From assembly GCA_965371445.1 (NCBI GenBank), contig CBDUYN010000035.1, positions 127 to 64,126 on the forward strand: 64,000 nucleotides of DNA, given 5' to 3'. The first letter of the stretch is position 1; each line of letters starts with the position of its first letter. A program made the position numbers and the translations under genes. The notes under the pieces were generated by a model, which saw nothing but the letters and a program-made list of their open reading frames with translations, was not told where the DNA came from and ran no database searches. This document shows positions 37,264 to 52,321 of this stretch, in pieces. This DNA comes from an uncultured bacterium (GTDB lineage Bacteria > Acidobacteriota > Thermoanaerobaculia > Multivoradales > J023).

Positions 37264-39266
37264 CCGGCGCCACGCCGCCGCCGGATCCACCGTACGGCGA
37301 GGATGGCCAGAAGGGCGGCGAGGAGGAGGGCGAGCATCGCCGTCCACGTGACGGCGGTGGCGTTGCGAAAGTAGACCGCCGGGTTCAGGCTCGCCACCGC
37401 GGTCCGCCTCGCCTCCGGGACGCGGTAGCGTTCCGGCACGTCGGCGACGCTGTCGCCGTCCGTGTCCGGGAGCTGGTCGAGATAGTCGACCAGAGCGAGC
37501 CATTCCTTGGCCTCCTGGACTCCCGGCGTGGTGGGGTCGGCGTCGACGAGCGCCGACTCGACGCTCGGGATCGGTCGTCCTGTGGCGTCCCTGGGAGCGA
37601 GAGAAAAGAGACCGGCGCTGAGCTCGCTCGCATAATGCATGTAGCTCAGGAAATAGGCGCTCATGCCGAAGCTGAAGAGCCGTTCCTCGTCGTCGAGGTC
37701 GATCGTCTCGTAGCCGCGGCGCTCGTCGCCCAATTCGATTTCGAAAACCTGGTCGAGCGGCGGACGGTACGGGTTGTAACGGAAGCGCAGGCCTGAGAAG
37801 AAGGGAAAATAACTCTTTCCTTTGAGGCGAGTGCCGATCAGGAGCACCTCGACGATGCTCTTGAGCTCCGGTGCCGTGAAATAGACCCGGGAAAGCGGGT
37901 AGCCTGGGCTCGACTCGACGGTGCCGATGCCGAGCGGCATCACCCGGAAAAGGTCCGAGGTCTGCTGGCGGCCGGTCTCACCGCGGCGGACGTTGTCGCG
38001 GATCATACCCGCGGTGGTCAGGACGACATCGGTGGGCTCGTCGAAGTAGCGGTCGATCGACCAGCGGACGGCGTCGGCCACCAGGGGGCCGAGGTTGCCG
38101 CCGGCCGGGTCGGCCGGGTCGTCGACGAGGTCGAAGCCGGTTTCGACGACGACGTCGCGAAAGCCGCGGCCGTAGGGTGCGAGGACCTCTTCGTCGATCC
38201 TCTCCACGTAGGCCGCGACCGTCTCCTCGATGTCGGGAGCGCTCGCGATCGAGTCGTCGATCGTCACGAGCTCGTAGTCGAGCACCCGGCTTCGCCCGTC
38301 GCGGACCTCAAGCTCCAGGACGCCGACGAACCGGGCCTCCGAGCCTGCCTGGACGACCGGCCGGCCATCGACGAGAGGTGGAACGGGGACCGGCTGGTGG
38401 GTGTGGCCGCTGACCACGACGTCGATGCCCGGGAGCTCACGTAAAAGCTCGATGCTGTCACCGACCCAGCGCGGTCCGACCTTGCGGAGCGCGCCGTGGT
38501 AGAGGCAGACGACGAGGTCGGCGCCCTCCTGCTCGCGCAGCACCGCGACCATCCTACGTGCTGTCTCCACGGGGTCGTCGAAGCTTGCCGGGCGGGCGTA
38601 GGCCGAGACTTCCGAAGCGTGGTACCCCAGGAGGCCGAAGAGGGCGATCCTCAAGCCGCCGCGCTCGACGAGGGTGAAGCGGCGCAGGACGCCGCGCTCG
38701 TAAAGCGCCGCCAGCTCGTCGTCGCCCTCGTCGTCGGGGTCGAAGCGGATGTTGGCGAGGAGAAGCTGCGGAAACGCTCCCTGGCGGCCCGCGGCTTCGA
38801 CGATGCGTGCCAGGCCGTCCGAATGGAAGTCGAAGTCGTGGTTGCCGAGGGTGGCGGCGTCGTAGCCGATGGCCTGCATCAGCCGGAGCTCCACAGCGTG
38901 TTGCTCGGCCAGTGTCTGGAAGAGGGTCCCCATCATGATGTCCCCGGCGTCGACGACGAGCGTGCGCTCGGGAGCGCGGGCACGGACCTCGCGGATCACC
39001 GTGGCGACGCGCGAGATGCCGCCGAGGGTCGCGTCGTCGTTCAAGGTCTCCGGGGTGTAGTCGCGATTGGGGGCAAAGCCCAGGAGGCGCGACTGGAGGT
39101 CGTTGGTGTGGACGATCGTCAGACGCTTCCCGTCCTCGGCGTGGGCCGTGGGGGCCACGGCAAGGAGGAGCAGGACGGCCGCGGCGGGAAGGCGATTCGC
39201 TGGGAGCGCAGGCGTCTCGCCTGCTTTCTTCCTTCGCTGGGATGCTCTCTGCTGATCCATCGTCAT
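37260..39266 (-). CDS. bifunctional metallophosphatase / 5'-nucleotidase (UshA-like), C-terminally membrane-anchored
   Basis: Start at MTMDQQ with a signal peptide. Calcineurin-like motifs (VHTNDLQS, DAGD, GNHDFD, GHTH) and a 5'-nucleotidase C-domain. C-terminal TM helix (AMLALLLAALLAILAV). Confidence 0.8.
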   Translation of the reverse strand: MTMDQQRASQRRKKAGETPALPANRLPAAAVLLLLAVAPTAHAEDGKRLTIVHTNDLQSRLLGFAPNRDYTPETLNDDATLGGISRVATVIREVRARAPERTLVVDAGDIMMGTLFQTLAEQHAVELRLMQAIGYDAATLGNHDFDFHSDGLARIVEAAGRQGAFPQLLLANIRFDPDDEGDDELAALYERGVLRRFTLVERGGLRIALFGLLGYHASEVSAYARPASFDDPVETARRMVAVLREQEGADLVVCLYHGALRKVGPRWVGDSIELLRELPGIDVVVSGHTHQPVPVPPLVDGRPVVQAGSEARFVGVLELEVRDGRSRVLDYELVTIDDSIASAPDIEETVAAYVERIDEEVLAPYGRGFRDVVVETGFDLVDDPADPAGGNLGPLVADAVRWSIDRYFDEPTDVVLTTAGMIRDNVRRGETGRQQTSDLFRVMPLGIGTVESSPGYPLSRVYFTAPELKSIVEVLLIGTRLKGKSYFPFFSGLRFRYNPYRPPLDQVFEIELGDERRGYETIDLDDEERLFSFGMSAYFLSYMHYASELSAGLFSLAPRDATGRPIPSVESALVDADPTTPGVQEAKEWLALVDYLDQLPDTDGDSVADVPERYRVPEARRTAVASLNPAVYFRNATAVTWTAMLALLLAALLAILAVRWIRRRRGAG

Positions 39267-41297: not shown

Positions 41298-43310
41298 CTA
41301 CGGCGAGGCGTGCGAAGGACGAAAGCTCGAGGTACTCGACGGTTCGGCCGCCACGACGACCCGGTCGCGTCCGGAGCGTTTGGCCTCGTAGAGGGCGTGA
41401 TCGGCGTGTTCCAAAACGTCGCGCCAACTGGCGCCGTGGAGAGGCCAGAGGGCAGCGCCAAAAGAGGCGGTGATCGCGCCCAGGGTCTGGCCGTCGGAGC
41501 GCGGTTTGAGTCCCCGGACGCCGTGGCGCATCTCGTCGGCGCGGCGGCGGACGACCTCGAGCGGAGCGCCCGGCAGGACGACGACGAACTCCTCGCCGCC
41601 GTAGCGGCAGACCACGTCGCCTTGACGCGCCGCGGTTTCCAGGAACCTGGCGACCTCGCGCAGGACGACGTCTCCCGCCTCGTGTCCCCAGGTGTCGTTG
41701 AAGCGTTTGAAGTGGTCGATGTCGAGGATGAGGAGCCCGATCGTCGAGGCGTCGCGCGATGCTCGGGCGACCTCGAGCCCCAACTGCTCGTTCAAGTACC
41801 GGCGGTTGACGAGCCCTGTCAGGGCGTCGCGGATCGATTGTTCCTTGAGCTCCTGATGGGCGCGGATGTTGCCGAGGGAAAGCGACATCGTTCGCGCCAA
41901 GGTGCGCAAGAAAGCTCCGTCGGGCTCTTCCGTGGCGAGGTAGAGGACGCCGACCGCCTCTCCCTGGGCGATGAGAGGCAGGCAGATATAGGCCTCGGCT
42001 CCTTCGACATGAGCGCAGACGGCGGGCTCTTCGGCATTGGAGACTTGATGGACCCGGCCGCGGCGCAGCGCCCAGCAATCCTCAACGGTGAACGCTCTTC
42101 CAGGCCGGGGCGGCTCGCCCCAGGTGACGACTTCCTTGAGGATGGTCCCGTCCTTGAGCTCGAACAGAGCCCCGGGCGTTGTCGGCAGCAGCTGCGCCAT
42201 CTCCGCCGCGATGATCTTGTAGGCTTCCTCGGAGCTGACCGCGACCTGGAGCAATTCGCTCATTCGGTCGCGGCGGTGCATCTGGTGGCGGAGCCGGACC
42301 TCGATTTCGCGTCCGGCACCGAGGACCACCGCGGCCAGGAAGAAGACGACCATCTCGGCGTAGAGCCCGACGGAGTAGATGTCGGCGTTGTCCGGCAGGT
42401 AGTCGCCGTCGGTGTAGGTCCGGGCCGCGAGGTAGAGGATGCTGGCGAGCGAAGCCGAGAGGAGCCCGCCGCGCAGCCCGTAGGAAAGCGCCGACCAGAG
42501 GATGAGGCCCAGGTACGTCAGCAGCGGCCAGTTGCCGGCCTCGGGGTTCGACCGGATGACGATGACGAGAGCCGTGCTGGCCAGCAGGCCCAGGGCGAGG
42601 AGCATCAACTGACCTGCGATCGGGACTTCCGATTTCGAAGGTTGGATCTGCAGGTTCTCGGGAAACCGCTTCGCTGGCGAGAGCTCCCTGGGCATCGGGA
42701 CGAGCAGCGGTTGTGTGAAGCGTCCGGCGAGGAGCATCAACGGGGGGGCGAAAAAAAGGACCGAGGCCAGGTTGCTGGCGGCGTGGGTCATCAACCCGCT
42801 CAGGCTGAGCTCGACGGGAAAGAGCAACTGGGTCGCGGCCGCGGTCAAGACGCCTCCGACCGCCGCGGCGGCGGCGAGGGCGAGGACCGAGCGCGCGTCG
42901 GGGAAGCCTCTGCCGATTCGGCCGACGTGGCGGAAGACCAGGTAGCCAACGATCCCGAGCAGGGCGTAGGAGATCGGTACGGCCACCCAAAGGCTGACGG
43001 CGTTCGACTCTGCAAAGACTGCCTGCCCCAGGGCGTCACCTCTGAGGGCGAGGGCGTTTTCCGTTTCGGTTAGCGTCGCAACTTGGAGAAGACGGACGTA
43101 GTGGCTCGTCGCCAGACCCGCGGACCAGCCGACGATCCCTGGCCAGCCCCACAGGACCCCTGCGAGGAAGGCGCCGGCCGGTACGGCCTCCAGGGCGGTG
43201 AGCAAGATCTTCTGGTCGAGCGCGTAGTTGCCCCACTCGATGCCGACGGCGGCGAGCCACGCCAGGAGGAATCGTAGGACGTTGAGGAGGGCTGGTCTGT
43301 GCTTCGACAT
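41298..43310 (-). CDS. membrane sensor diguanylate cyclase (polytopic N-domain + GAF + GGDEF)
   Basis: 670 aa. Several TM helices, a GAF-like middle region and a C-terminal GGDEF domain (RYGGEEFVVVL, GDVVLREVA). Confidence 0.85.
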   Translation of the reverse strand: MSKHRPALLNVLRFLLAWLAAVGIEWGNYALDQKILLTALEAVPAGAFLAGVLWGWPGIVGWSAGLATSHYVRLLQVATLTETENALALRGDALGQAVFAESNAVSLWVAVPISYALLGIVGYLVFRHVGRIGRGFPDARSVLALAAAAAVGGVLTAAATQLLFPVELSLSGLMTHAASNLASVLFFAPPLMLLAGRFTQPLLVPMPRELSPAKRFPENLQIQPSKSEVPIAGQLMLLALGLLASTALVIVIRSNPEAGNWPLLTYLGLILWSALSYGLRGGLLSASLASILYLAARTYTDGDYLPDNADIYSVGLYAEMVVFFLAAVVLGAGREIEVRLRHQMHRRDRMSELLQVAVSSEEAYKIIAAEMAQLLPTTPGALFELKDGTILKEVVTWGEPPRPGRAFTVEDCWALRRGRVHQVSNAEEPAVCAHVEGAEAYICLPLIAQGEAVGVLYLATEEPDGAFLRTLARTMSLSLGNIRAHQELKEQSIRDALTGLVNRRYLNEQLGLEVARASRDASTIGLLILDIDHFKRFNDTWGHEAGDVVLREVARFLETAARQGDVVCRYGGEEFVVVLPGAPLEVVRRRADEMRHGVRGLKPRSDGQTLGAITASFGAALWPLHGASWRDVLEHADHALYEAKRSGRDRVVVAAEPSSTSSFRPSHASP

Positions 43311-43469
43311 AGAATCAGGGTCCGGAGGCTCGGAGGCCTAGTATAACCCGTCGATGGGCTCTTGGGCCGACGTTGTGCGCCGAGCCTTCCTGGCAACATT
43401 TCCCTGGACAACCTCGGGTGTCCCTGAGATGCTCGGCGCACGATTACGCCGAGCGTAAAGGACGGTGCC

Positions 43470-46400
43470 GTGCGCTACCACGCCGACCTGCACATTCATT
43501 CGAAGCATTCCCGCGCCACCAGCCGCGACTGCGACTTGGAGCACCTGGCCTGGTGGGCCCGTCGCAAGGGCCTGACGGTCGTCGCCACCGGCGACTTCAC
43601 CCACCCGGCCTGGTTCGAGGAGATCCGGGAGAAGCTCGTCCCCGCCGAGCCGGGGCTCTTCCGGCTGCGCGGCGACATCGAGCGCGAGGTCCTCTCGACG
43701 CTGCCGGCCGCCTGCCAGGGGCCGGTGCGCTTCCTGCTCGAAGTCGAGATTTCGACCATCTACAAGAAAGACGACCGGACCCGCAAGGTCCATCACCTGA
43801 TCTACGCGGCGACGATCGACACCGCGTCGCGCTTCCGCGACCGCCTGGCCACGGTGGGCAACATCGCTTCCGACGGCCGCCCGATCCTCGGCCTCGACTC
43901 ACGTCACCTCTTGGAGATCACCCTCGAGAGCGGCGAGGACGCCTACCTCGTCCCGGCCCACGTCTGGACGCCTTGGTTCGCCGTCCTGGGTTCGAAGTCG
44001 GGTTTCGACTCGGTCACCGACTGCTATGGCGACTTGGCGGAGCACATCTTCGCGGTGGAGACGGGCCTGTCGTCGGATCCGCCGATGAACTGGCGCGTTT
44101 CGGACCTCGACCGCTACACCCTGGTCTCGAATTCCGACGCCCACTCGCCGCCGATGCTCGGCCGCGAGGCCTGCGTTTTTGACACCGAGCTCGACTACTT
44201 CGCCATGCGCCGGGCTTTGGAGACCCGCGAGGGCTTCGGTGGCACCGTGGAGTTTTTTCCCGAAGAGGGGAAGTATCACCTCGACGGCCACCGCGCCTGC
44301 GCCGTGCGTCTCGAACCGGAGGAAACGCGCCGTCGCGGCGGGCTCTGCCCGTCCTGCGGCAAGGCCGTGACAATCGGGGTGCTTCACCGGGTGGAGACTC
44401 TCGCGGACCGTCCGGAGGGAGCCCGGCCTGAGACCGCGGCGCCCTTCCGCAGCCTCGTCCAACTGCCGGAGATCCTCTCGGAGCTCCACGGCGTGGGGCC
44501 GAAGTCGAAGACGGTCGAGCGCGCGGTCTCGGCCCTCGTCTCCCGCCTCGGACCGGAGATGGAGATCCTCGAAGAGGTGCCGCTGGAGGATGTCGAGCGC
44601 ACCGCCGATCCGCTCCTCGCGGAGGCCCTCCGGCGGCTTCGCCGCGGCCAGGTGCGTTGCGAGGGAGGCTACGACGGAGAGTACGGCACGATCCGTCTCT
44701 TCGAGCCCGAGGAAGTGACGTCGCAGCTGCGGCTGTTCGCGTTGCGAGAGCCTCCCAAGCCGGAGCCGACGCCGGAACCGGTACCGGCGCCCGAGCCCGT
44801 GGCCTCGGAGCTTGCCGCGGTCCATACCGTCCAAGAGAGCCTCCCTCTTGCGTCCGGACCGCCCCTGCTCGCGGCGCTCGACCCCGACCAGCGAGCCGCC
44901 GCCGAGGTCCTCGACGGGGCGCTCCTGATCGTTGCCGGCCCCGGTACCGGCAAGACCCGGACCCTGACGCACCGCATCGCCCATCTCATCGCCCGGGGTA
45001 CGCCGGCCTCGAGGTGTCTGGCGCTGACCTTCACCCGCCGCGCCGCGACGGAGATGCGCGAGCGGCTCGACGCGTTGCTGCCGGCCGCGGGCCGAATCCT
45101 CGTGACCACGTTTCACGGTCTGGGGCTTCGCATCCTGCGCGAGCAGCACGCCGAAGTCGGGCTCGACCGCGCCTTCCGCGTCGCCGACGAGGCGATGCGC
45201 CTGGAGGTCGCGGCGCAGGTTTTTGCCTTGTCCCGTTCGGAGGCGGTCCGGCTCATCGCCGATCTCGCCGCGGCGCGGCGCGACGGGGAGGCCCACGAAC
45301 GCCTGCCTGCCTACCGCCTGGCGCTCTGGGAACGGGAGCTCGTCGATTTCGACGATCTGCTCGCCCTGCCGGTGGAGCTCTTCGCCGAGCGTCCCGAGGT
45401 CCTGGAGGGCTACCGGCAGCGCTTTCGCCACCTCTCGATCGACGAGTACCAGGACATCGACGCGCTCCAGTACCGCCTCATCCGCCTGCTGGCTGGCGAG
45501 GGCGGCAACCTCTGCGCGATCGGCGACCCGGACCAGTCGATCTACCGCTTCCGTGGCGCCGACGTGGGCTTCTTCCTGCGTTTCCAGGAGGACTTCGCGC
45601 CGGCTCGGCTCGTCGAGCTGCGGCGTAACTACCGTTCGCAGCCGACGGTGCTTCGGGCGGCCCTCCAGGCCATCGCGCCGTCGAGCCTTGTGGCCGGCCG
45701 TCAGCTGGAGCCGGTGGGGGAGCACAAGGCAGAGCCGGTCGTCGTCCTCGAGGCGGCGAGTGAGCGGGCCGAGGCGGAGCTCGTGGTCCGCACGATCGAG
45801 GAGCAGCTGGGGGGGACCTCCTACTTCTCGATCGACAGCGGACGCGTCCGCTCCGAGGACGCGGCGCTCATGGGCGAGCTCTCCTTCGACGACTTCGCGA
45901 TCCTCTATCGGACCCACGCCCAGGCGGAGGCGCTCGTCGAGGCCCTGGAGCGGGCCGGCATGCCCTACCAGAAGCGCTCCCACGAACGGCTGATGGAGCG
46001 CGACGAGGTTCGCCTCCTCGTCCACGTCCTGGAGTCCCAGGCGTCGGCGGACGAGACGAGCGTCCTCGAGAGACTCCGCCAAGCGCGGCAGGAAGCCGGT
46101 GGGGTCGGCGATTGTGCCCTCGACCAGGCCCTGGAGCTTGTCGCGCCGCTCGCCGAGCGGCACGGTAGCGACCTCGCCGCCTTCCTCGCCGAGATCGCCC
46201 TGGGAGCCGAGGTCGACACCTGGGACCCGCGGGCGGAACGCTTGTCGCTTTTGACGCTCCACGCGGCGAAGGGCCTGGAGTTCCCCGTGGTCTTCCTCGT
46301 CGGCTGTGAGGAGGGACTGATGCCCTTTTCGCCACCGTGGGAGGACGCCGACGTCGACGTGGCCGAGGAGCGAAGGCTCTTTTTCGTCGGCATGACCCGG

Positions 46401-46580
46401 GCACGTTCGCGCCTCTATCTTTCGTGGGCGCGCCGCCGCCGGCTGCGCTCCGAGGTGGTGAAGAGGCGGCCCTCGCCTTTCCTGTGCGACATTGAGGAGA
46501 CCCTCCTGAGCCGTCGCCGCAATGAGCCGGTGCGACGGCGTCGCCGCGGCGAAGACGTCCGGCAGCTACGGCTGCTTTGA
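43470..46580 (+). CDS. PHP-domain/Zn-ribbon (COG1379-like) phosphoesterase fused to UvrD/PcrA-family superfamily-1 DNA helicase
   Basis: 1036 aa.
- N-terminal PHP domain: MRYHADLHIHSKHSRATSRD...TGDFTHPAWF, ...VSNSDAHSPPMLG.
- Cys ribbon: CPSCGKAVTIGVLHRV.
- UvrD-like motifs: IVAGPGTGKTRTL (Walker A), LALTFTRRAATEM, DEYQDID, and C-terminal helicase motifs (LTLHAAKGLEFPVVFLVG, FFVGMTRAR). Confidence 0.8.
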   Translation: MRYHADLHIHSKHSRATSRDCDLEHLAWWARRKGLTVVATGDFTHPAWFEEIREKLVPAEPGLFRLRGDIEREVLSTLPAACQGPVRFLLEVEISTIYKKDDRTRKVHHLIYAATIDTASRFRDRLATVGNIASDGRPILGLDSRHLLEITLESGEDAYLVPAHVWTPWFAVLGSKSGFDSVTDCYGDLAEHIFAVETGLSSDPPMNWRVSDLDRYTLVSNSDAHSPPMLGREACVFDTELDYFAMRRALETREGFGGTVEFFPEEGKYHLDGHRACAVRLEPEETRRRGGLCPSCGKAVTIGVLHRVETLADRPEGARPETAAPFRSLVQLPEILSELHGVGPKSKTVERAVSALVSRLGPEMEILEEVPLEDVERTADPLLAEALRRLRRGQVRCEGGYDGEYGTIRLFEPEEVTSQLRLFALREPPKPEPTPEPVPAPEPVASELAAVHTVQESLPLASGPPLLAALDPDQRAAAEVLDGALLIVAGPGTGKTRTLTHRIAHLIARGTPASRCLALTFTRRAATEMRERLDALLPAAGRILVTTFHGLGLRILREQHAEVGLDRAFRVADEAMRLEVAAQVFALSRSEAVRLIADLAAARRDGEAHERLPAYRLALWERELVDFDDLLALPVELFAERPEVLEGYRQRFRHLSIDEYQDIDALQYRLIRLLAGEGGNLCAIGDPDQSIYRFRGADVGFFLRFQEDFAPARLVELRRNYRSQPTVLRAALQAIAPSSLVAGRQLEPVGEHKAEPVVVLEAASERAEAELVVRTIEEQLGGTSYFSIDSGRVRSEDAALMGELSFDDFAILYRTHAQAEALVEALERAGMPYQKRSHERLMERDEVRLLVHVLESQASADETSVLERLRQARQEAGGVGDCALDQALELVAPLAERHGSDLAAFLAEIALGAEVDTWDPRAERLSLLTLHAAKGLEFPVVFLVGCEEGLMPFSPPWEDADVDVAEERRLFFVGMTRARSRLYLSWARRRRLRSEVVKRRPSPFLCDIEETLLSRRRNEPVRRRRRGEDVRQLRLL

Positions 46581-46778: not shown

Positions 46779-48626
46779 ATGAACCGATTCCATTGGCCGT
46801 TGGCATTGACCCTTGCGGCAGCGCTTTGTGTCGTCGGCCTCCTGAGTCTCATCTACGTCCCTGCCGCCGACGATCCGGCGTCGCCCGTCGCCGCGATACG
46901 GTGGGTCACGGCCTCGATCCTGATGGCCGGGGCAGGAGGGATTGTCCTTCTGGCGCGGGAGCTTGCGAGGCGCCAGCGCTCGGAGGCGACGCTCGGCGAA
47001 CGCTGCAGCGAGCTTGTCAGGGCCGAGGAGGCCGCCGAAGTGGAGAAGAAGGCGGCCGAGGCCGCCACTCAAGCCAAGTCGGCGTTCCTGTCGAGCATGA
47101 GCCACGAGATCCGTACGCCGCTCAACGGTGTGTTCGGGATGACGAACCTCCTGCTGCGCAGCGACCTCGACGAACGCCAGCACGAATGGGTCGAGACCCT
47201 GCGCCGTAGCTGCGACAACCTGCAGGTCATCGTCAACGACATCCTCGACCTCTCGAAGATCGAGGCTGGAGCCCTGCAGCTCGAGCGCCGGTCCTTTGAC
47301 CTCCCGCAGCTCCTCGAACAGTTGCTGGAGCCCTTTGCGGTCGAGGCGGAGCGCCGAGGGCTCCGGCTCGTCTCTTCCTTCGACCCCAAAACGCCGCGCT
47401 GGCTCGTCGGTGACGCGACGCGGCTCGGCCAGGTGCTCACGAACCTCGTCAGCAACGCGCTCAAATTCACCTACCACGGCGAGATCACCGTCACCGCCGC
47501 ACCGCGCTACGAGCGCGACGGCGAGGTGGAGATGCTCTTCCACGTCCGCGACACCGGGGTGGGGATTCCAGCCGAAAAGCAGGGGAAGCTCTTCCAGGCG
47601 TTTGCCCAGGCCGAGGCGTCGACCGCCCGCCGGTTCGGTGGCAGCGGACTGGGCCTGATGATCTCGCGCAACCTCGTAGAGCTGATGGGCGGCAAGATCT
47701 GGGTCGAGAGCGAGGCGGGGCAGGGGAGCTCCTTTTATTTCACGATCGTCGCAACGGTGGCCGAGGGCGGAACGGTCATCGAGACGGGAGGCGAGGCCGC
47801 GGTGGAGCTTTCTCCGGACTTCGCCCGCTTCTTTCCGTTGTCGATCCTGGTAGCGGAAGACGACGCCATCAACCGCCAGGTGATCGGCGAGACGCTTCAC
47901 ACGCTGGGCTACGAGCCGCGCTTCGCCACCGACGGTGCCGAGGCGCTCGCCGAGCTCGCGGCACGGAGCTTCGACCTGCTCTTGCTCGACCTCCACATGC
48001 CGGTGCTCGACGGCTTCGAGGTCGCGAACCGCCTCAAGGTGAACCCTCCGGCCACCGGAAGGCCTCGCATCGTCGCCCTGACCGCCAGGGCCACCCGCGA
48101 TGTCCGGGAGAAGTGCTTCGAGGCGGGCATGGACGACTACCTGACGAAACCCTTCCCGCTCCACGAGCTCCAACGGCTCTTGCGAGGCGAGGAAGGCATG
48201 GCGTCGGGTGCCATCTGGACGGCGCAGATCGAGACCGGAATGCCCACCCTCGAGGTGCGCGCCGTAGAGAAGCTGAAAAAGCTCAAGGCCGGCAAGCGGC
48301 ACGAGGTCTTACGAGAGCTGGTCGAGATGTTTCGCGAGATGACCCCGGAACGGCTGGCGTCGATGCGGGAGTCCTTTGACCGCGGCGACACCCGTGGCGT
48401 GCAGGAGATGGCCCACATGCTCAAGTCGAACGCCGGGAACCTGGGGGCGCGAAAGATGGCGTTCGTCTGCGCGACGATCGAGGAAGCGGCTGCCGAAGGA
48501 GACCTGAGCGAGGTCAAAGAGCTCCTGGGCCCCCTTGAGGTCCTCTTCAACCGCTCGATTCGGGCCTTGTCCGCGACAGTGGCGAAACCACCTGCCGAGA
48601 CCCAGCCCGTGGCCCCTGGGCCGTAG
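46779..48626 (+). CDS. hybrid sensor histidine kinase (HisKA-HATPase_c-REC-HPt)
   Basis: - TM N-terminus.
- H-box SHEIRTPLNGV, plus N, G1 and G2 boxes (GGSGLGL).
- Receiver domain (LVAEDDAINRQV ... LLLLDLHMPVLDG ... KP).
- C-terminal HPt (HMLKSNAGNLGA).
- GGAGGG Shine-Dalgarno. Confidence 0.85.
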   Translation: MNRFHWPLALTLAAALCVVGLLSLIYVPAADDPASPVAAIRWVTASILMAGAGGIVLLARELARRQRSEATLGERCSELVRAEEAAEVEKKAAEAATQAKSAFLSSMSHEIRTPLNGVFGMTNLLLRSDLDERQHEWVETLRRSCDNLQVIVNDILDLSKIEAGALQLERRSFDLPQLLEQLLEPFAVEAERRGLRLVSSFDPKTPRWLVGDATRLGQVLTNLVSNALKFTYHGEITVTAAPRYERDGEVEMLFHVRDTGVGIPAEKQGKLFQAFAQAEASTARRFGGSGLGLMISRNLVELMGGKIWVESEAGQGSSFYFTIVATVAEGGTVIETGGEAAVELSPDFARFFPLSILVAEDDAINRQVIGETLHTLGYEPRFATDGAEALAELAARSFDLLLLDLHMPVLDGFEVANRLKVNPPATGRPRIVALTARATRDVREKCFEAGMDDYLTKPFPLHELQRLLRGEEGMASGAIWTAQIETGMPTLEVRAVEKLKKLKAGKRHEVLRELVEMFREMTPERLASMRESFDRGDTRGVQEMAHMLKSNAGNLGARKMAFVCATIEEAAAEGDLSEVKELLGPLEVLFNRSIRALSATVAKPPAETQPVAPGP

Positions 48627-48629
48627 CGG

Positions 48630-50477
48630 CTACCGCGCCTCCAGGATCAGCAACCGGTAGCCCCCGCCTCCGCCCGGACCCTCGACCAGGGTCCCCCAGC
48701 CGGCGAGGCGGACTTCTTGGCCCCGCCGGTCGAGGTGGACGAGCTGGCCCTGCCAGTGGCCAAGGCCGTCGATTTCGTCGAGGGTGTCGTCGAGAGCCGT
48801 CGTTCCTGGCGGCGACAGGGTCGCGGCCGCCGAGCGTCCTCGGATCTCGGCGGGGGAAAACCCGAGCAGGTCCTCGGCGGCGCGGTTCCAGTGACGTACC
48901 CGGCCCTGGCCGTCGACGGCGTAGACCGCCGCACGCAGGTGGTCGACGAGCCCCGCCGGCCGCCGCAGCGCTTCGACTTTTTCCCACTGCGAAGTCTCAC
49001 GCGAGATCGACAGCACCGCCTGGACGCCACGGATCGCCATCTTCTGCAAGGACAGGAGCATGATCGCCGGCGCGCCGGAGCCCGTGCGCAGGATGAGCAG
49101 GAAACGCCGAAGGGTGTCGGAGACCTCCAGCCGGCGACAGAGCCGGATGCGGTCGCCTGGGTTCGACCACAGGTCGAGCTCTTCCGGAGTCCGTCCGACG
49201 ATTTCGTCGCGGCGGCGGGCGAGGGCCTTTTCAAAGGCCGGATTGACTTCGATGAAGGTGGCGTCGTCGAGGCGGTTGATCGAGATCGCGTAAGGGCAGG
49301 CCTGGAAAGCGATCTCGAATTTCTCGTGCGCGAGTCGTTGCGCCTCCTCGGCCTTGTAACGCTCGAGGATCAGCCGCAGGTCTTGCTGGCTGTCCGAGAG
49401 CTTTTCTTCGAACCTCTTACGTTCGAGCCAGAGCTCCTCGGCCCGCCGCTCGAGCAGGCGGTGCTGAAAAACGGCCATCGCGCCGAGCAGCAGCAGCCAG
49501 GTGAGGACCACGAGCTCTCTGAGCGGCTCGCTAGGGCCGTCGAAGAGCTTGGAGCCGTAGCCGGCGAAATGCAGCAGGGGGAAAGCGAGGGCAAAAGACA
49601 GCGTCCGGGAGGTCAGGGCAAGAGCCGCGTCCTCGCCGCGCGGCCCGCTGAGCGAACCTTCCGAGGGGAGCGGAGACGGCTGCTGCAGCCGCGCCGCGAT
49701 CACCAGGAAGACGAAGGCGAGCTCCAGCAAGGCGCGGGGGGCGTGGGCGATCGGCCAGTCCGGGTGGAAACGCAGGAGCTCAGCGACGGTGTAGGAAACG
49801 ACCAACGTGGCAGGGACCCAGGCCAGCAGGCCGTAGCTCACCCGCCAGCGAAGCGACGGCGCCGCCCCCGCCAGGATGAGAAGTCGCAGGGCCAGCATGC
49901 CGTTCAACACGATCAGCAGATAGGAACCGCTCGGTTCTCCTGGGCGCTCTTCCGGATAGTAGAGCGGGACGAGCGGCAAGTAAAGCACCAGGCCGAGCAC
50001 AAAAAAGCTCACCGCCGGCCACGTGTAGAGGCGCTCCAGGGCCGTCAGGGGACGATCGACGAAACGGCGATGGGGCTGCCGGTCGACCGCGAGGACGAGC
50101 AAGACGTAGGCGGCGGCGAACATCACCTGCGGAGCCACCTTGGCCACCGCCGAGAGCTGGTGGGGGACTTGGACGAGCCTCAGGAGGTCCGGAACGAGCC
50201 AGCAGCCGAAGGCCAGAGAAAGCTCGTTCCAGAATCGCCGTTCCGGGCCTCGCGCATGGTGGAGCGTCAGGCGTATCGCGACGATCGCCAGCAGTGGGTA
50301 GAGGAAGGGGACGGCGTCGATTCTCAGGGGTTCCGGGAGGGCGATCCCCAGATCCTGGGCCGCGTAGAGGCTACTCGTGGCGACGAAGGCCAAGGCCGCC
50401 GCCTGGGAGAGGCGCTCGTGGCTCACGCTCGCCGCGGCGGCGCTCAGGATGCGTACCAAATCGCCGTGGCCGAGCAT
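48630..50477 (-). CDS. polytopic membrane sensor with two C-terminal PAS domains and no output domain (paralog 1)
   Basis: Start at MLGHGDLV. About 8 TM helices, then a coiled-coil and two PAS folds (FEIAFQACPYAISINRLDDATFIEVNPAFEKALARRRDEIVGRT; LRAAVYAVDGQGRVRHWNRAAEDLLGF). Convergent with the hybrid histidine kinase, with 3 nt between the stops. Confidence 0.7.
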   Translation of the reverse strand: MLGHGDLVRILSAAAASVSHERLSQAAALAFVATSSLYAAQDLGIALPEPLRIDAVPFLYPLLAIVAIRLTLHHARGPERRFWNELSLAFGCWLVPDLLRLVQVPHQLSAVAKVAPQVMFAAAYVLLVLAVDRQPHRRFVDRPLTALERLYTWPAVSFFVLGLVLYLPLVPLYYPEERPGEPSGSYLLIVLNGMLALRLLILAGAAPSLRWRVSYGLLAWVPATLVVSYTVAELLRFHPDWPIAHAPRALLELAFVFLVIAARLQQPSPLPSEGSLSGPRGEDAALALTSRTLSFALAFPLLHFAGYGSKLFDGPSEPLRELVVLTWLLLLGAMAVFQHRLLERRAEELWLERKRFEEKLSDSQQDLRLILERYKAEEAQRLAHEKFEIAFQACPYAISINRLDDATFIEVNPAFEKALARRRDEIVGRTPEELDLWSNPGDRIRLCRRLEVSDTLRRFLLILRTGSGAPAIMLLSLQKMAIRGVQAVLSISRETSQWEKVEALRRPAGLVDHLRAAVYAVDGQGRVRHWNRAAEDLLGFSPAEIRGRSAAATLSPPGTTALDDTLDEIDGLGHWQGQLVHLDRRGQEVRLAGWGTLVEGPGGGGGYRLLILEAR

Positions 50478-50479
50478 GC

Positions 50480-52321
50480 TTAGCTCCCGGACTCCGTGGC
50501 CGGCGCCGACGCCGGAGCCCGGACCGCGACGATGAGCCGCCATTCGCCGCGCGCTTCGGCCACCGGGAAAGTGCGGCTCAGGATGCGGTGACCGTTTGGC
50601 AGGGTGGCCGCCGCCGTGGCGGCGCCGTCGTCGTCCTTGGCTGCCGCCAACCATTCGCCGCAGCCCGGCAGGTCGCTCGCGTCACGGCCCAGGGCGTCTC
50701 CGGCCTCGAGACCGAAAAGCCGCTCCGCGGCCTCGTTCCAATAGTGGATCCGGCCCGCGGCGTCGAGGGCGCAGACCGCGCTCCGGGCGCTGTCGAGAAG
50801 CATCGCACGGCGTTCGAGGCCTTTGTCACGGTGCCGGTTGCCGGTGACGTCGTGGACGACGGAAAAGACGTGAGGTACGCCGCTTAGGTCGATCCTCTCC
50901 GCCGAGAAAAGCCCTACCCCGAGCTTGCCCGACTTCCTGCGGAAGAGGCTCTCGATTTCTCGTACCGAAGGGTTCTCCGAGAACCAGCTCTCAAGAGTGG
51001 TCCGGTCACGGGGCCGCGCCCAGATCTCGAGCTCTTTTAAGCTGCGGCCCACGAGCTCTTGCGGAGCGAAGCCGAAGATCTCGCCGGAGCTGGCGTTTAT
51101 GTCGATCAGCCGGCCGTCGTCGAGACGGGTGATCGCCATCACGTCGGGGGAGGCCTGAAACGCCTGGGCGAAGATCTCGTTGGCGGCGGCGCGCTTGGCC
51201 TCGACACCCTGGAGCTGTTTGCGTAGCCGCAGGTCGTCCTCGATCCGCCGCAAAGCCCGCTCGGTGCGTCCTCGTTCCGTCCGCAAATCGGCCGTGGTGC
51301 GGGCCAGGCGGCGGTGCTGATAAAAAGCCACCATGCCGAGCAGCAGGAGCCACACAAGGACCACCCACGAGCGCGGCGCTTTGCTCGCCGCGTTCATCCA
51401 TTCCGCCTGGTAGCCCGTGAAGTGGACCAGCGGGAAGAGCAGCGCGAAGATCATGGTCTGACCCAGAGGGCCCGGAAAGCTGTCGTCGCCCTGATAGCCG
51501 GCGTAGGTCGCCGGGGTCTCCATCGGGAAGGGATGGTGGCGTGTCCTGGCGCCGAGCAGAAGGAAGACGGCCGGAAGCTTCCAACTCACGTCGAAGAAGC
51601 GCTCCCAGGGCCAGTCGGCGACGAGCGAGCTCCGGTGGAGGCTTCCCAGGAGGTCGTTGCCAAGCACCGCCAGCGTCGTGGCCGCCAGGAACGAGTAGAC
51701 CAGCCGCCAGCGAGGCGAGCGTACGGTGCGGCTCAGGTGGAGCAGCCGACCCGAGAAATAGGCGTCGAGGATGAGGAAGAGGCCGGTCGCAGACCGGCGG
51801 CTGTCGTAGGAAGCCGGGTCGACGAAGACGGGCACCAGGAAGTACAGGAAAAGCCCTGTGACGGCCACCGTGACCGTCGCCCAGGTCAGAGATCGTTCCA
51901 GCGCCACAGGCCGCCAGCGGTGCCGGTGGTGGGGCCGGACCGAGAGCGCGAGATAGAGGCCTCCGTAAAAGAGGGCGTAGAGGACGTCCGCGGTCCAACT
52001 CGTCCACAACGGAGCTTGCGGATAGACCAGGTAAAGGACGGGAGCCGCCAGCCAGCACACCGTGGCCCGGCTCAGGTCGTTCCAGAAGGCCCGGTCCTCA
52101 GGGGCCCGGATTTGCGACAACTTGAAGCGTAGCGCCAGGAAGGTCAGGGCCACGAAGAAGACCGCGGCGGCGTTGCGGATCCGAGACGGCAGGTCGACGC
52201 CAGCTACCACCAGGCCCGCATAGGCAAGCAAGGCGAAGAGGTTCACCTGGACGAGCCGGTCGTCCAGCAGGGTTCGCCAGAGGGGTTGGCTGTTCGGTAG
52301 GGGGCTGGAAGTCGAGCTCAT
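50480..52321 (-). CDS. polytopic membrane sensor with two C-terminal PAS domains and no output domain (paralog 2)
   Basis: Start at MSSTSSPL. Same architecture as the adjacent gene, and clearly paralogous to it (FAQAFQASPDVMAITRLDDGRLIDINASSGEIFGF; AVCALDAAGRIHYWNEAAERLFGL). Confidence 0.7.
   Translation of the reverse strand: MSSTSSPLPNSQPLWRTLLDDRLVQVNLFALLAYAGLVVAGVDLPSRIRNAAAVFFVALTFLALRFKLSQIRAPEDRAFWNDLSRATVCWLAAPVLYLVYPQAPLWTSWTADVLYALFYGGLYLALSVRPHHRHRWRPVALERSLTWATVTVAVTGLFLYFLVPVFVDPASYDSRRSATGLFLILDAYFSGRLLHLSRTVRSPRWRLVYSFLAATTLAVLGNDLLGSLHRSSLVADWPWERFFDVSWKLPAVFLLLGARTRHHPFPMETPATYAGYQGDDSFPGPLGQTMIFALLFPLVHFTGYQAEWMNAASKAPRSWVVLVWLLLLGMVAFYQHRRLARTTADLRTERGRTERALRRIEDDLRLRKQLQGVEAKRAAANEIFAQAFQASPDVMAITRLDDGRLIDINASSGEIFGFAPQELVGRSLKELEIWARPRDRTTLESWFSENPSVREIESLFRRKSGKLGVGLFSAERIDLSGVPHVFSVVHDVTGNRHRDKGLERRAMLLDSARSAVCALDAAGRIHYWNEAAERLFGLEAGDALGRDASDLPGCGEWLAAAKDDDGAATAAATLPNGHRILSRTFPVAEARGEWRLIVAVRAPASAPATESGS

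What the first reader, a model, noticed from the sequence alone, without database searches (positions are those of the whole stretch)
43470..46580. PHP/Zn-ribbon (COG1379-type) phosphoesterase domain fused N-terminally to a UvrD/PcrA-like helicase
The first 400 aa or so carry PHP His/Asp metal-ligand motifs (HADLHIHSKHS, TGDFTHP, SNSDAHSP) and a CPSC...H Zn-ribbon. They are followed by a complete SF1 UvrD-type helicase with motifs I-VI.

Standalone COG1379 PHP proteins are poorly characterised, and UvrD helicases normally lack an intrinsic nuclease or phosphoesterase. The fusion implies a helicase-coupled end-processing activity, analogous in concept to AddAB / AdnAB or a PolX-type PHP 3'-5' exonuclease (inference).

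The gene sits alone, divergent from a GGDEF gene, and is not in a uvr context.
Basis: partly seen in the sequence, partly recalled or inferred. Interest (0 to 1): 0.55.

Follow-up and report, generated by a model that had tools for sequence, protein, structure and literature searches.

The report
Endonuclease Q fused to UvrD-type helicase
This gene encodes a DNA-repair enzyme that joins a nuclease known to nick DNA next to deaminated bases (Endonuclease Q) to a UvrD-like unwinding motor and a sliding-clamp docking tail; the fusion is real and very widespread in bacteria, was already catalogued in 2016, but has never been studied biochemically.

Summary
Window 43470-46580 (+) is one intact 1036-aa ORF: a PHP/Zn-binding module (aa 1-424), a disordered Pro-rich linker, and a complete SF1A UvrD/PcrA-type helicase.

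The interpretation needs updating. COG1379/TIGR00375 is Endonuclease Q (EndoQ), which nicks DNA immediately 5' of uracil, hypoxanthine, xanthine and AP sites. It has been characterised since 2015 and has crystal structures. The N-terminal module matches PfuEndoQ (E 3e-45, model TM 0.77). Every catalytic and lesion-pocket residue is invariant in 120 homologs. An AddAB-like end-processing or PolX-like exonuclease role is not supported.

The fusion is no artefact. 71 of 80 species genomes examined, across about 12 phyla, encode it as a single ORF. The 150 closest 50%-identity clusters are almost all about 1000-1250 aa.

The protein ends in QLRLL, a beta-clamp-binding motif conserved family-wide (QLxLF/L). 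Shiraishi et al. 2016 had already listed such long bacterial EndoQ homologs with this motif, including WP_015906045, which aligns end-to-end with this protein.

Most likely mechanism (inferred): clamp-tethered nicking 5' of a deaminated base, then ATP-driven displacement of the lesion strand.

It is a new member of a catalogued but biochemically uncharacterised family. Interest is moderate to low.

The parts
43458..43462 (+). Shine-Dalgarno-like AAGGA, 7 nt upstream of the GTG start
   Evidence: Read directly from the sequence. The start is supported by alignment of aa 4 onward to PfuEndoQ residue 4 onward and by homologs starting at the same position.
43470..46580 (+). Complete ORF (1036 aa + stop): EndoQ-UvrD-type helicase fusion
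   Evidence: An identical protein, P0001, is in public collections. 120 full-length homolog clusters were found.
43470..44258 (+). EndoQ PHP catalytic domain (aa 1-263). Metal ligands H8, H10, E93, H108, H164, D223. Essential R137 and H225. Lesion pocket H164/T167/E197/T198/G199/L200/S201/N221. Wedge W169.
   Evidence: Alignment to PfuEndoQ 5zb8. These residues are invariant in 120/120 homologs (N221 in 114/120). Residue roles are taken from PMC5961232 and PMC8307549.
44259..44456 (+). EndoQ Zn-binding domain (aa 264-329). Zn ligands H274, C277, C293, C296 (His-Cys3, where PfuEndoQ has Cys4). Conserved K268 and Y269.
   Evidence: invariant in 120/120 homologs. Pfu and Brevibacillus EndoQ have Cys at the first position.
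44457..44741 (+). EndoQ C-terminal helical domain (aa 330-424; Pfam PF27218 MJ0043_C in homologs)
   Evidence: The alignment to PfuEndoQ runs through residue 386. Precomputed Pfam MJ0043_C is recorded on homologs. The model shows helices at 332-391.
44742..44861 (+). Pro-rich disordered linker (aa 425-464; 27.5% Pro)
   Evidence: pLDDT is below 50 over aa 425-464. Composition. The region is variable in length and sequence in alignment A2.
44862..46514 (+). SF1A UvrD/PcrA-type helicase core (aa 465-1015). Motifs: Q (470-479), I AGPGTGKT (489-496), Ia (518-529), II DEYQD (658-662), III GDPDQSIYRFRGA (685-697), IV NYRS (720-723), V TLHAAKGLEF (929-938), VI VGMTRAR (973-979).
   Evidence: Pfam and NCBIfam matches. 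PcrA 1pjr E 1e-85. Foldseek TM 0.72-0.75 to UvrD/PcrA-DNA complexes. Motif residues are invariant in alignment A2.
45990..46241 (+). Shortened helicase 2B subdomain (aa ~841-924; four helices)
   Evidence: The PcrA alignment jumps from PcrA 435 to 529 while the query advances only from 892 to 900. DSSP on the model shows helices 845-856, 865-876, 881-898 and 902-910. NYRS-to-motif-V spacing is 209 aa here, median 214 in the family, and 278 in PcrA.
46515..46562 (+). Basic, disordered C-terminal tail (aa 1016-1031, RRNEPVRRRRRGEDVR)
   Evidence: pLDDT is below 50 from aa 1020.
46563..46577 (+). C-terminal pentapeptide QLRLL (aa 1032-1036): putative beta-sliding-clamp-binding motif
   Evidence: Q1032 and L1035 are invariant in A2. 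92 of 125 full-length 50%-cluster representatives, and nearly all complete fusions across phyla, end in Q[LM]x[L][F/L]. The same motif was tabulated for long bacterial EndoQ homologs in PMC4858679 Suppl. Fig. S1.

Best explanation
The gene encodes a bacterial 'long-form' Endonuclease Q: a lesion-specific nickase fused in cis to a UvrD/PcrA-type 3'-5' helicase, ending in a beta-sliding-clamp-binding peptide.

**Shown by sequence and structure comparison**
- The N-terminal 424 aa are an EndoQ module with intact metal ligands, lesion pocket and Zn domain.
- The C-terminal 550 aa are an SF1A helicase with all ATPase and translocation motifs intact.
- The two modules are joined by a disordered 40-aa linker.
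- The protein ends in a basic tail followed by QLRLL.

**Inferred mechanism**
1. The C-terminal QLxL(F/L) peptide docks the protein on the beta clamp. This parallels the way the C-terminal PIP box of archaeal EndoQ docks on and is stimulated by PCNA.
2. The EndoQ module flips a deaminated or missing base (dU, dI, dX, AP) into its pocket and cuts the phosphodiester bond immediately 5' of it. This leaves a 3'-OH, with the lesion at the 5' end of the downstream strand.
3. The tethered helicase loads at this nick. By translocating 3'-5' on the intact complementary strand, it peels off the lesion-bearing downstream strand. It probably also evicts the otherwise product-bound EndoQ module.
4. A 5' flap or single-strand exonuclease, a clamp-bound polymerase and ligase finish a long-patch repair.

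Functionally this resembles MutH/MutL-directed UvrD excision in mismatch repair, with the nickase, helicase and clamp adaptor in one polypeptide. It supplies in cis the strand-displacement step that archaea are proposed to obtain from PolB plus Fen1.
For: **EndoQ identity**
- phmmer against the PDB gives E 3e-45 to 5zb8/7k30 over aa 4-416.
- TIGR00375 is covered end to end.
- Foldseek gives TM 0.77-0.78 to 5zb8.
- Identity to PfuEndoQ is 31%.
- All published catalytic residues (H8, H10, E76, H84, R114, H139, D193, H195), pocket residues and the wedge Trp are conserved in 120/120 homologs, N221 in 114/120. Their roles come from PMC5961232 and PMC8307549.

**Helicase identity**
-. Motif residues are invariant in alignment A2.

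**Real and ancient fusion**
- 120 full-length homolog clusters.
- 125 of the 150 nearest 50%-identity clusters are at least 950 aa.
- 71 of 80 species genomes carry a single-ORF fusion. They span Acidobacteriota, Actinomycetota, Myxococcota, Planctomycetota, Binatia, Gemmatimonadota, Verrucomicrobiota, Alphaproteobacteria, Chloroflexi, Melainabacteria and Desulfobacterota.
- Identities of the two modules co-vary across loci (rho 0.59, p 5e-7).

**Clamp motif**
-, and independently PMC4858679 text and Suppl. Fig. S1.
- The archaeal precedent for clamp binding and stimulation is in PMC4858679.
- The tail is disordered in the model, as expected for a clamp-binding peptide.

**Why a helicase would be needed**
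- PfuEndoQ stays bound to its nicked product, giving single turnover (PMC5961232).
- The archaeal model requires displacement of the lesion strand by PolB/Fen1 (PMC4858679).

**Housekeeping rather than mobile**
- The chromosomal contexts are variable and are not defence islands.
- The module is absent from 50,697 phage records and present in 1 of 72,556 plasmid records.
Against: - No activity of any long-form EndoQ has been measured in the literature I could reach. Nicking specificity, helicase polarity, the loading strand and clamp binding are all inferred by homology.
- Three PfuEndoQ DNA-backbone contacts shown by mutagenesis to matter (R201, R251, K276) are not conserved; here they are M229, A276 and T301. 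The first Zn ligand is His rather than Cys. DNA binding may therefore differ.
- The whole-protein score against TIGR00375 (146 bits) is below its curated cut-off (326.6). Scores against the PcrA/UvrD equivalogs are far below theirs.
- Bacterial Pol I can remove a 5' lesion nucleotide by nick translation without a helicase, so the need for unwinding is not self-evident.
- The relative orientation of the two modules is not defined by the model (pTM 0.56, disordered linker). The strand on which the helicase loads is therefore a guess.
- There is no conserved operon partner to corroborate a pathway.
Confidence: 0.6

Rival explanations
1. Same two activities, but the helicase is not an excision motor. 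It would act mainly as a translocase that scans DNA for lesions, for example ssDNA at replication forks behind the clamp. Alternatively it would act as an ATP-driven release factor that recycles the product-bound EndoQ module, as UvrD does for UvrBC after incision. Lesion removal would then be left to Pol I nick translation.
For: - PfuEndoQ is single-turnover and stays on its nicked product (PMC5961232).
- EndoQ also acts on ssDNA (PMC8307549).
- The clamp motif suggests association with replication.
- The shortened 2B subdomain and the absence of the PcrA/UvrD C-terminal partner-binding region indicate regulation different from canonical UvrD.
Against: - Nothing in the sequence distinguishes this reading from strand excision.
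- Cutting ssDNA at forks would create double-strand breaks.
- The helicase keeps every unwinding-relevant motif, including a GVG counterpart of the duplex-binding GIG motif.
Confidence: 0.22
2. An anti-phage or anti-foreign-DNA nuclease-helicase. It would restrict invading DNA that contains uracil, hypoxanthine or other non-canonical bases, or DNA deaminated by deaminase toxins, by nicking it and unwinding it for degradation.
For: - Nuclease-helicase fusions are common in defence systems, and the helicase part matches PADLOC GajB (UvrD-like) models.
- A defence role against U-DNA phage has been suggested for B. subtilis EndoQ (PMC8307549).
- Genomic context is not conserved.
- The architecture has occasionally been lost or split.
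Against: - The PADLOC hits are generic to UvrD helicases. No model matches the EndoQ part, and no GajA-like partner gene is adjacent.
- There is no PHROGs hit.
- The EndoQ module is absent from phage records and essentially absent from plasmids.
- Neighbours are signalling and housekeeping genes, not defence islands.
- Strong conservation (58-79% identity in the EndoQ domain) across phyla and a conserved beta-clamp motif point to integration with host replication and repair.
Confidence: 0.1
3. One reading: a helicase-coupled DNA-end processing enzyme, either AddAB/AdnAB-like or carrying a PolX-type PHP 3'-5' exonuclease or phosphatase.
For: - PHP domains in PolX and Pol III alpha are 3'-5' exonucleases (cited in PMC3820547).
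- AddA, AdnB and RecB appear as weaker helicase-only matches.
Against: - The PHP module is specifically an EndoQ. [quoted passage not shown]
- EndoQ lacks the third metal site of PHP phosphoesterases (PMC5961232).
- There is no RecB-family nuclease domain and no second-subunit gene.
- AddA and RecB equivalog scores are far below their cut-offs.
Confidence: 0.05
4. Artefact: two adjacent genes (an EndoQ and a UvrD-like helicase) joined by a sequencing or assembly frameshift.
For: In a few MAGs the two parts are in different frames (L004, L065, L070) or the helicase part is frameshifted (L027, L042, L049, L060, L069).
Against: - 71 of 80 independent species genomes have one continuous ORF. These include complete chromosomes of cultured strains: Sorangium So ce1078 and Actinoplanes CA-015351.
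- 120 full-length clusters exist.
- The linker is in frame and conserved in position.
- The split cases are the exceptions and look like assembly errors or pseudogenes.
Confidence: 0.01

Closest known systems
Endonuclease Q of Pyrococcus furiosus / Thermococcus kodakarensis (PDB 5zb8, 7k30; 'family 1' archaeal EndoQ)
   Same: - The three-domain EndoQ module is the same: PHP catalytic domain, Zn-binding domain and C-terminal helical domain.
- All metal ligands, R114/H195 equivalents, lesion-pocket residues and the wedge Trp are conserved.
- A clamp-binding peptide sits at the extreme C-terminus (PIP box in archaea, QLxLF/L here).
   Different: - Identity is 31%.
- The Zn site is His-Cys3 rather than Cys4.
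- Three basic DNA-contact residues are not conserved.
- About 610 extra residues (linker, UvrD-type helicase, basic tail) lie between the EndoQ module and the clamp motif.
- The partner clamp is bacterial beta rather than PCNA.
Short bacterial EndoQ (Bacillus pumilus / B. subtilis type; e.g. the 393-aa Brevibacillus 'endonuclease Q family protein' WP_031414379)
   Same: - It is a bacterial EndoQ with the same catalytic and pocket residues.
- The Bacillus enzymes cleave dU, dI and AP DNA like PfuEndoQ (PMC5961232, PMC6202378).
   Different: - Identity is only 28%.
- It is standalone, with no adjacent helicase gene and no C-terminal QLxLF in the Brevibacillus example.
- Its Zn site is Cys4, and Arg137 and Trp169 are replaced by Gln and His.
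Long bacterial EndoQ homologs tabulated by Shiraishi et al. 2016 (PMC4858679 Suppl. Fig. S1), e.g. Desulforapulum autotrophicum 'PcrA2' WP_015906045 (1157 aa), Sorangium cellulosum WP_012236160, Saccharopolyspora spinosa WP_029535017
   Same: - It is the same family. WP_015906045 (P0288) aligns with the window protein from residue 1 through the helicase C-terminal region (45% identity) and ends in QLDLF.
- Sorangium and Saccharopolyspora relatives were recovered here as single-ORF fusions.
   Different: - The window protein is a new acidobacterial (Thermoanaerobaculia-like) member with a QLRLL variant of the motif and a shorter 2B insert than the D. autotrophicum protein.
- That paper never mentions a helicase (0 occurrences), and no member has been characterised.
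UvrD / PcrA / Rep (SF1A 3'-5' helicases)
   Same: - All SF1A motifs are present, with a 1A/1B/2A/2B architecture.
- Identity is 30-33%, and TM is 0.72-0.75 to the DNA-bound closed forms.
   Different: - It is not an ortholog: PcrA, UvrD and Rep equivalog scores are 322-397 bits against cut-offs of 911-1144.
- The 2B subdomain is about 70 residues shorter.
- The C-terminal ~75 residues of PcrA beyond residue 648 are not matched. They are replaced by a basic tail plus a clamp motif.
- An N-terminal nuclease module is present.
MutH/MutL-UvrD (mismatch repair excision) and UvrABC-UvrD (NER) - nick-directed unwinding
   Same: The logic is the same (by inference): a damage-directed nick followed by UvrD-type unwinding of the nicked strand, with involvement of the beta clamp.
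   Different: - Here the nickase and the helicase are one polypeptide.
- The nick is placed directly at the lesion by an unrelated (PHP) nuclease.
- No MutS/MutL or UvrAB-type sensor is involved.
AddAB / AdnAB / RecBCD helicase-nucleases
   Same: They contain an SF1A helicase domain related at the superfamily level, combined with a nuclease.
   Different: - Their nuclease is a C-terminal RecB-family PD-(D/E)xK domain, not an N-terminal PHP domain.
- They are hetero-oligomers acting on double-strand ends. No partner gene is present here.

Membership tests
Endonuclease Q (COG1379 / TIGR00375 / 'endonuclease Q family protein') | PHP-fold catalytic domain with the two-metal ligand set His8, His10, Glu76, His84, His139, Asp193 (Pfu numbering) | tested here: met
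   The equivalents are H8, H10, E93, H108, H164 and D223, invariant in 120/120 homologs. The ligand list comes from PMC5961232. Fold TM is 0.77-0.78 to 5zb8.
Endonuclease Q (COG1379 / TIGR00375 / 'endonuclease Q family protein') | Additional essential residues Arg114 and His195 | tested here: met
   R137 and H225 are invariant. Their essentiality is reported in PMC5961232.
Endonuclease Q (COG1379 / TIGR00375 / 'endonuclease Q family protein') | Deaminated-base recognition pocket (His139, Thr142, Glu167, Leu168, Gly169, Leu170, Ser171, Asn191, Asp193) and the Trp144 loop | tested here: met
   The equivalents are H164, T167, E197, G199, L200, S201, N221, D223 and W169, all conserved. Leu168 is replaced by Thr198, a position reported as a main-chain contact (PMC5961232; PMC8307549).
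Endonuclease Q (COG1379 / TIGR00375 / 'endonuclease Q family protein') | Zn-binding domain with four Zn ligands (Cys249, Cys252, Cys268, Cys271 in Pfu) | tested here: met
   Four ligand positions are occupied by H274, C277, C293 and C296, invariant in 120/120 homologs. This is a His-Cys3 variant. Zn binding itself was not tested.
Endonuclease Q (COG1379 / TIGR00375 / 'endonuclease Q family protein') | C-terminal helical domain (PF27218 MJ0043_C) | tested here: met
   The alignment to PfuEndoQ continues to Pfu residue 386, which is query residue 416. MJ0043_C is precomputed on homologs. The model shows helices in this region.
Endonuclease Q (COG1379 / TIGR00375 / 'endonuclease Q family protein') | Score above the curated NCBIfam TIGR00375 cut-off (326.6 bits) | tested here: not met
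   The score is 146.2 bits, although the profile is covered over positions 2-374 of 374. The model is a 'hypothetical equivalog' for the short archaeal-type proteins. The miss therefore argues against equivalog status, not against membership of the EndoQ superfamily.
Endonuclease Q (COG1379 / TIGR00375 / 'endonuclease Q family protein') | C-terminal sliding-clamp-binding motif (PIP box in archaea; QL[D/S]LF reported for bacterial homologs) | tested here: met
   The protein ends in QLRLL. The motif is conserved at the terminus across the family and was reported for long bacterial homologs in PMC4858679 Fig. S1. Binding was not tested.
Endonuclease Q (COG1379 / TIGR00375 / 'endonuclease Q family protein') | Endonucleolytic cleavage immediately 5' of dU, dI, dX or AP sites | not testable with these tools
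   This requires a biochemical assay.
SF1A UvrD/PcrA/Rep helicases | Conserved motifs Q, I, Ia, II, III, IV, V and VI, with Walker A Lys, the DE of motif II and the Arg fingers | tested here: met
   K495, D658/E659, Q689, R722 and R977 are invariant in A2. Pfam UvrD-helicase scores E 1e-66 and UvrD_C scores E 1e-38.
SF1A UvrD/PcrA/Rep helicases | Orthology to PcrA, UvrD or Rep (NCBIfam equivalog cut-offs) | tested here: not met
   PcrA scores 397 against a cut-off of 911. UvrD scores 322-336 against 965-1144. Rep scores 322 against 951. This is a distinct subfamily, not the housekeeping UvrD/PcrA.
SF1A UvrD/PcrA/Rep helicases | Full-size regulatory 2B subdomain and C-terminal partner-binding region | tested here: not met
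   The 2B subdomain is reduced to four helices (aa ~841-924). PcrA residues 436-528 have no counterpart. The alignment ends at PcrA 648 of 724.
AddAB / AdnAB / RecBCD helicase-nuclease complexes | RecB-family (PD-(D/E)xK) nuclease domain C-terminal to the helicase, and a partner subunit encoded alongside | tested here: not met
   No such domain appears in the Pfam or NCBIfam scans. Only the helicase segments match, far below cut-off. The neighbours are a GGDEF cyclase and a histidine kinase.
Gabija (GajA/GajB) defence system | UvrD-like GajB encoded next to an OLD-family ATPase-nuclease GajA | tested here: not met
   GajB models match only as generic UvrD. There is no GajA-like neighbour.

The most novel reading that the evidence does not exclude
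The long-form EndoQ is a self-contained, beta-clamp-tethered 'nick-and-unwind' excision machine. It would define a widespread bacterial long-patch repair route for deaminated and abasic bases that needs no glycosylase. The family is present in at least ~600 species across a dozen phyla, including Actinomycetota, Myxococcota, Acidobacteriota and Planctomycetota. Such a route would be mechanistically parallel to mismatch-repair excision, but with sensor/nickase, helicase and clamp adaptor in a single polypeptide. The truncated 2B subdomain might make the helicase constitutively active once the EndoQ module has nicked.
Probability: 0.45. Interest if true: 0.55.

Novelty: new member of a known kind. 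Interest (0 to 1): 0.35.

Why it matters
EndoQ-initiated repair is usually presented as an archaeal speciality with 'a few' bacterial examples. The survey here shows that the EndoQ domain is common in bacteria: 3831 clusters at 50% identity, and at least 596 species genomes. In this large clade it almost always comes welded to a UvrD-type helicase and a beta-clamp motif.

If the inferred mechanism is right, many soil and sediment bacteria, including antibiotic-producing actinomycetes and myxobacteria, have a glycosylase-independent, clamp-coupled pathway for uracil, hypoxanthine and AP-site repair that nobody has tested. The protein would also be a natural single-chain model for how a nick is handed from a nuclease to a helicase.

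For this particular window the finding is an ordinary, intact member of that family. It is useful mainly for correcting the generic database label 'UvrD-helicase domain-containing protein'.

Tried and rejected
1. **Assembly or frameshift artefact: rejected.** The few split or frameshifted copies are exceptions.
2. **Defence system: disfavoured.** PADLOC gives only generic GajB/UvrD hits on the helicase part. PHROGs gives nothing for the EndoQ part. No phage record matches, and only one chromosome-like megaplasmid does.
3. **Conserved operon partners: none found.** The contexts of two distant homologs on 9.3 and 12.2 Mb replicons share nothing with each other or with the window. The look-up of encoding contigs had no record for the window protein itself.
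4. **SOS regulation: no evidence.** There is no GTTC-N7-GTTC, CTGT-N8-ACAG or GAAC-N4-GTTC LexA-type box in the 159-nt upstream spacer. The scan found no sigma-70-like promoter and no convincing terminator.
5. **Literature on the fusion.**
   - Searches for EndoQ or 'endonuclease Q' combined with helicase, UvrD, fusion or fused, for TIGR00375 or COG1379, and for 'PHP domain' with UvrD found no paper describing a helicase-fused EndoQ.
   - Three key papers are not in the held library: Shiraishi 2017 (Biosci Biotechnol Biochem 81:931), Shiraishi & Iwai 2020, and Shi 2021 PNAS.
   - Whether the 2017 'three families based on domain organization' explicitly names the helicase could therefore not be verified.
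6. **Interdomain geometry: not obtainable.** Model coordinates are not exposed, and pTM is 0.56 with a disordered linker. No inference was drawn about a fixed EndoQ-helicase interface.

Full report

Yes. Window 43470-46580 (+) is one uninterrupted ORF of 1036 codons with a GTG start. An AAGGA Shine-Dalgarno-like element lies 7 nt upstream.

- HADLHIHSKHS at aa 4-14
- TGDFTHP at aa 40-46
- SNSDAHSP at aa 220-227
- CPSC at aa 293-296

Pfam finds UvrD-helicase (aa 470-709, E 1e-66), UvrD_C and AAA_19. The PDB sequence search finds PcrA 1pjr over aa 465-1015 (E 1e-85).

The gene is flanked by a divergent GAF-GGDEF cyclase (41298-43310, -) and a hybrid histidine kinase (46779-48626, +). The remaining large ORFs of the window are TonB-receptor, Ser/Thr-kinase, PAS-sensor and ABC-permease genes. 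None is a repair or defence gene.

**2. What is the N-terminal module?**

It is not merely 'a poorly characterised COG1379 PHP protein'. It is an Endonuclease Q (EndoQ) module.
- Residues 4-416 align with the crystallised P. furiosus EndoQ (5zb8, 7k30-7k33) at E 3e-45 and 31% identity.
- They cover NCBIfam TIGR00375 end to end.
- In an AlphaFold2 model (mean pLDDT 78.7) the module superposes on 5zb8 with TM 0.77-0.78.

What is known about EndoQ:
- It cuts the phosphodiester bond immediately 5' of uracil, hypoxanthine, xanthine and AP sites (PMC4357722 abstract; PMC8307549).
- Structure and mutagenesis define the metal ligands as H8, H10, E76, H84, H139 and D193.
- R114 and H195 are additional essential residues.
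- The lesion pocket is H139/T142/E167/L168/G169/L170/N191/D193, plus S171.
- W144 is the wedge residue.
- The Zn site is Cys4 (PMC5961232; PMC8307549).

Mapping these onto the window protein and 120 full-length homologs shows that every one is conserved: H8, H10, E93, H108, R137, H164, T167, W169, E197, G199, L200, S201, N221, D223, H225.

The differences are:
- The first Zn ligand is His274 rather than Cys. It is invariant in the fusion clade, while both Pfu and Brevibacillus EndoQ have Cys.
- Three basic DNA-backbone contacts of PfuEndoQ (R201, R251, K276) are M229, A276 and T301 here.

**3. The helicase module**

All SF1A motifs are present and invariant in a 55-sequence alignment: Q, I AGPGTGKT, Ia, II DEYQD, III GDPDQSIYRFRGA, IV NYRS, V TLHAAKGLEF, VI VGMTRAR.

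The model matches DNA-bound UvrD/PcrA structures with TM 0.72-0.75.

It is not the housekeeping UvrD/PcrA/Rep. The equivalog scores are 322-397 bits against cut-offs of 911-1144.

Two features differ from PcrA.
- *The 2B subdomain is reduced.* PcrA residues 436-528 have no counterpart. Only four helices lie between aa 841 and 924. The NYRS-to-motif-V spacing is 209 aa here and has a median of 214 in 241 family members, against 278 in PcrA.
- *The C-terminal region is replaced.* The part of PcrA beyond residue 648 is replaced by a basic, disordered tail.

A 40-residue Pro-rich linker (aa 425-464, pLDDT below 50) joins the two modules.

**4. Is the fusion genuine, and how common is it?**

- A search with the full protein returned 120 clusters of full-length homologs. 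They are 1008-1187 aa, 60-84% identical, with ~100% coverage. Several lie on 7-12 Mb replicons. The named ones are mostly Thermoanaerobaculia/Acidobacteriota, which is probably the source lineage of the window.
- An exhaustive HMMER scan with only the EndoQ domain found 3831 clusters at 50% identity, 1123 of them at E <= 1e-30. Of the 150 nearest, 125 are at least 950 aa.
- The best 80 loci come from Acidobacteriota, Actinomycetota (Micromonospora, Salinispora, Saccharopolyspora, Actinoplanes and others), Myxococcota (Sorangium), Planctomycetota, Binatia, Gemmatimonadota, Verrucomicrobiota, Alphaproteobacteria, Chloroflexi, Melainabacteria, Endomicrobia and Desulfobacterota.
- In 71 of those 80 loci the EndoQ ORF continues into the helicase.

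Of the remaining nine loci:
- Three have the helicase directly downstream in another frame.
- One runs off its contig.
- Five are genuinely short.

Identities of the two modules co-vary across loci (Spearman 0.59, p 5e-7). This is consistent with one ancient fusion evolving as a unit. The artefact hypothesis is refuted.

**5. The C-terminal clamp motif**

The protein ends in ...RRRRRGEDVRQLRLL. Q1032 and L1035 are invariant in the alignment.
- Across the family the last residues are QLSLF, QLDLF, QLELF, QLKLF, QMSLF, QLRLL and similar.
- 92 of 125 full-length representatives fit Q[LIVMF]x[LIVMF][LFIMW] within the last 10 residues. By a rough residue-frequency estimate (not a tool result) about 0.5% would do so by chance.
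- Nearly every complete fusion from every phylum has the motif. The five short relatives do not.

This is the bacterial beta-clamp-binding consensus QL[D/S]LF.

The point is not new. Shiraishi et al. 2016 showed that archaeal EndoQ binds PCNA and is stimulated by it through a C-terminal PIP box. They also noted beta-clamp motifs at the C-termini of bacterial homologs (PMC4858679).

Their Suppl. Fig. S1 lists about 35 homologs of 945-1244 aa (Desulfobacterium autotrophicum WP_015906045, Sorangium cellulosum, Saccharopolyspora spinosa, Geobacter metallireducens, Rhodothermus marinus, Zymomonas mobilis and others) beside ten short ones.

WP_015906045 turned up here as P0288, annotated 'PcrA2 / DNA 3'-5' helicase'. 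It aligns with the window protein from residue 1 through the helicase C-terminal region at 45% identity.

That paper never uses the word helicase. A later paper says the same group classified EndoQ into three families 'based on the domain organization' in 2017 (PMC5961232). That 2017 paper is not held in the library. No accessible paper describes or tests the helicase fusion.

**6. Most likely mechanism**

*Shown:* there is an intact EndoQ active site and lesion pocket, an intact SF1A motor, a flexible tether, and a terminal clamp-binding-type peptide. All are under strong purifying selection across phyla.

*Inferred:*
1. The beta clamp recruits and possibly stimulates the enzyme, as PCNA does for archaeal EndoQ.
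2. The EndoQ module nicks 5' of dU, dI, dX or an AP site.
3. The lesion now sits at the 5' end of the downstream strand. A 3'-5' helicase translocating on the intact complementary strand would therefore displace the lesion-bearing strand.
4. This supplies in cis the strand-displacement step that the archaeal model assigns to PolB plus Fen1 (PMC4858679).
5. The motor probably also frees the EndoQ module, which in Pyrococcus stays on its product (PMC5961232).
6. A flap or 5' exonuclease, a polymerase and ligase complete the repair.

This works like MutH/MutL-UvrD excision, but it is not a member of that system.

The main rival keeps both activities but casts the motor as a scanning or turnover device. 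A defence role is disfavoured: the EndoQ part has no PADLOC or PHROGs match, the module is absent from phage records and nearly absent from plasmids, the context is housekeeping, and the clamp motif is conserved.

**7. Novelty and verdict**

The protein is a new, intact acidobacterial member of a family that was already catalogued as 'bacterial EndoQ homologs' with a clamp motif. Databases label it only as 'UvrD-helicase domain-containing protein' or 'TIGR00375 family'.

What remains open is the biochemistry of the long form, which to my knowledge and in the accessible literature has not been tested. The breadth of the family documented here makes that a worthwhile experiment. The finding itself is neither surprising to a DNA-repair specialist nor unknown.

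Interest 0.35; novelty: new member of a known kind.

Noticed in passing
window 44289-44291 (His274) with Cys277/293/296; homologs P0001-P0120: The first Zn ligand of the EndoQ Zn-binding domain is His in all 120 helicase-fused homologs. PfuEndoQ and the short Brevibacillus EndoQ have Cys (a Cys4 site). This is a clade-specific His-Cys3 variant of unknown consequence.
   Followed up: partly
window 45990-46241 (aa ~841-924) and 46515-46577: The helicase 2B subdomain is about 70 residues shorter than in PcrA. In the family the NYRS-to-motif-V spacing has a median of 214 and ranges from 132 to 347, against 278 in PcrA. The PcrA/UvrD C-terminal region is replaced by a basic tail. 2B is autoinhibitory in Rep/UvrD (own knowledge), so the motor may be regulated differently.
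   Followed up: partly
loci L004, L065, L070 (split between modules); L027, L042, L049, L060, L069 (frameshift inside the helicase): Several MAG copies of the fusion are broken by frameshifts. Five of the eight (L004, L027, L042, L049, L065) are in 'MFD...' assemblies. They may be assembly errors or real pseudogenes; this was not resolved.
   Followed up: partly
loci L037, L046, L052 (Luteolibacter), L055 (Rhodospirillaceae), L081 (Endomicrobia): These are short (414-453 aa) standalone EndoQ genes that are 59-68% identical to the fused EndoQ domain. They lack both the helicase and the C-terminal clamp motif. This suggests secondary loss of the helicase rather than an ancestral short form.
   Followed up: partly
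L002 11242-11820 (12.2-Mb chromosome OZ375331.1): In this distant homolog's locus, a LigT / 2',5'-RNA-ligase-type (2H phosphoesterase) gene starts 2 nt after the fusion gene's annotated end. It is not seen in the window or in L001, so it may be coincidence.
   Followed up: no
L001 7174-7817: A PIN-domain gene and a small upstream ORF (a toxin-antitoxin-like pair) lie about 180 nt upstream of the fusion gene on the opposite strand, in a 9.3-Mb contig.
   Followed up: no
window 9825-12086 (+, 753 aa), 12968-15529 (+, 853 aa), 35893-37503 (-, 536 aa): These large ORFs have no Pfam match at E <= 1e-5. It was not checked whether they are real genes in this 65-70% GC sequence.
   Followed up: no
window 48630-50654 (-) and 50480-52369 (-): Two long PAS-domain sensor ORFs on the minus strand overlap by about 175 nt. 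The start of the downstream ORF (48630-50654, whose start lies at the 50654 end) is probably later than the first in-frame start codon.
   Followed up: no
L083 5423-7170 (Brevibacillus laterosporus NZ_CP011075.1): The short Bacillus-type EndoQ gene sits immediately downstream of a NUDIX hydrolase gene and next to spoIIM, fur and xerD, on a 733-kb replicon labelled a plasmid. The region looks chromosomal.
   Followed up: no
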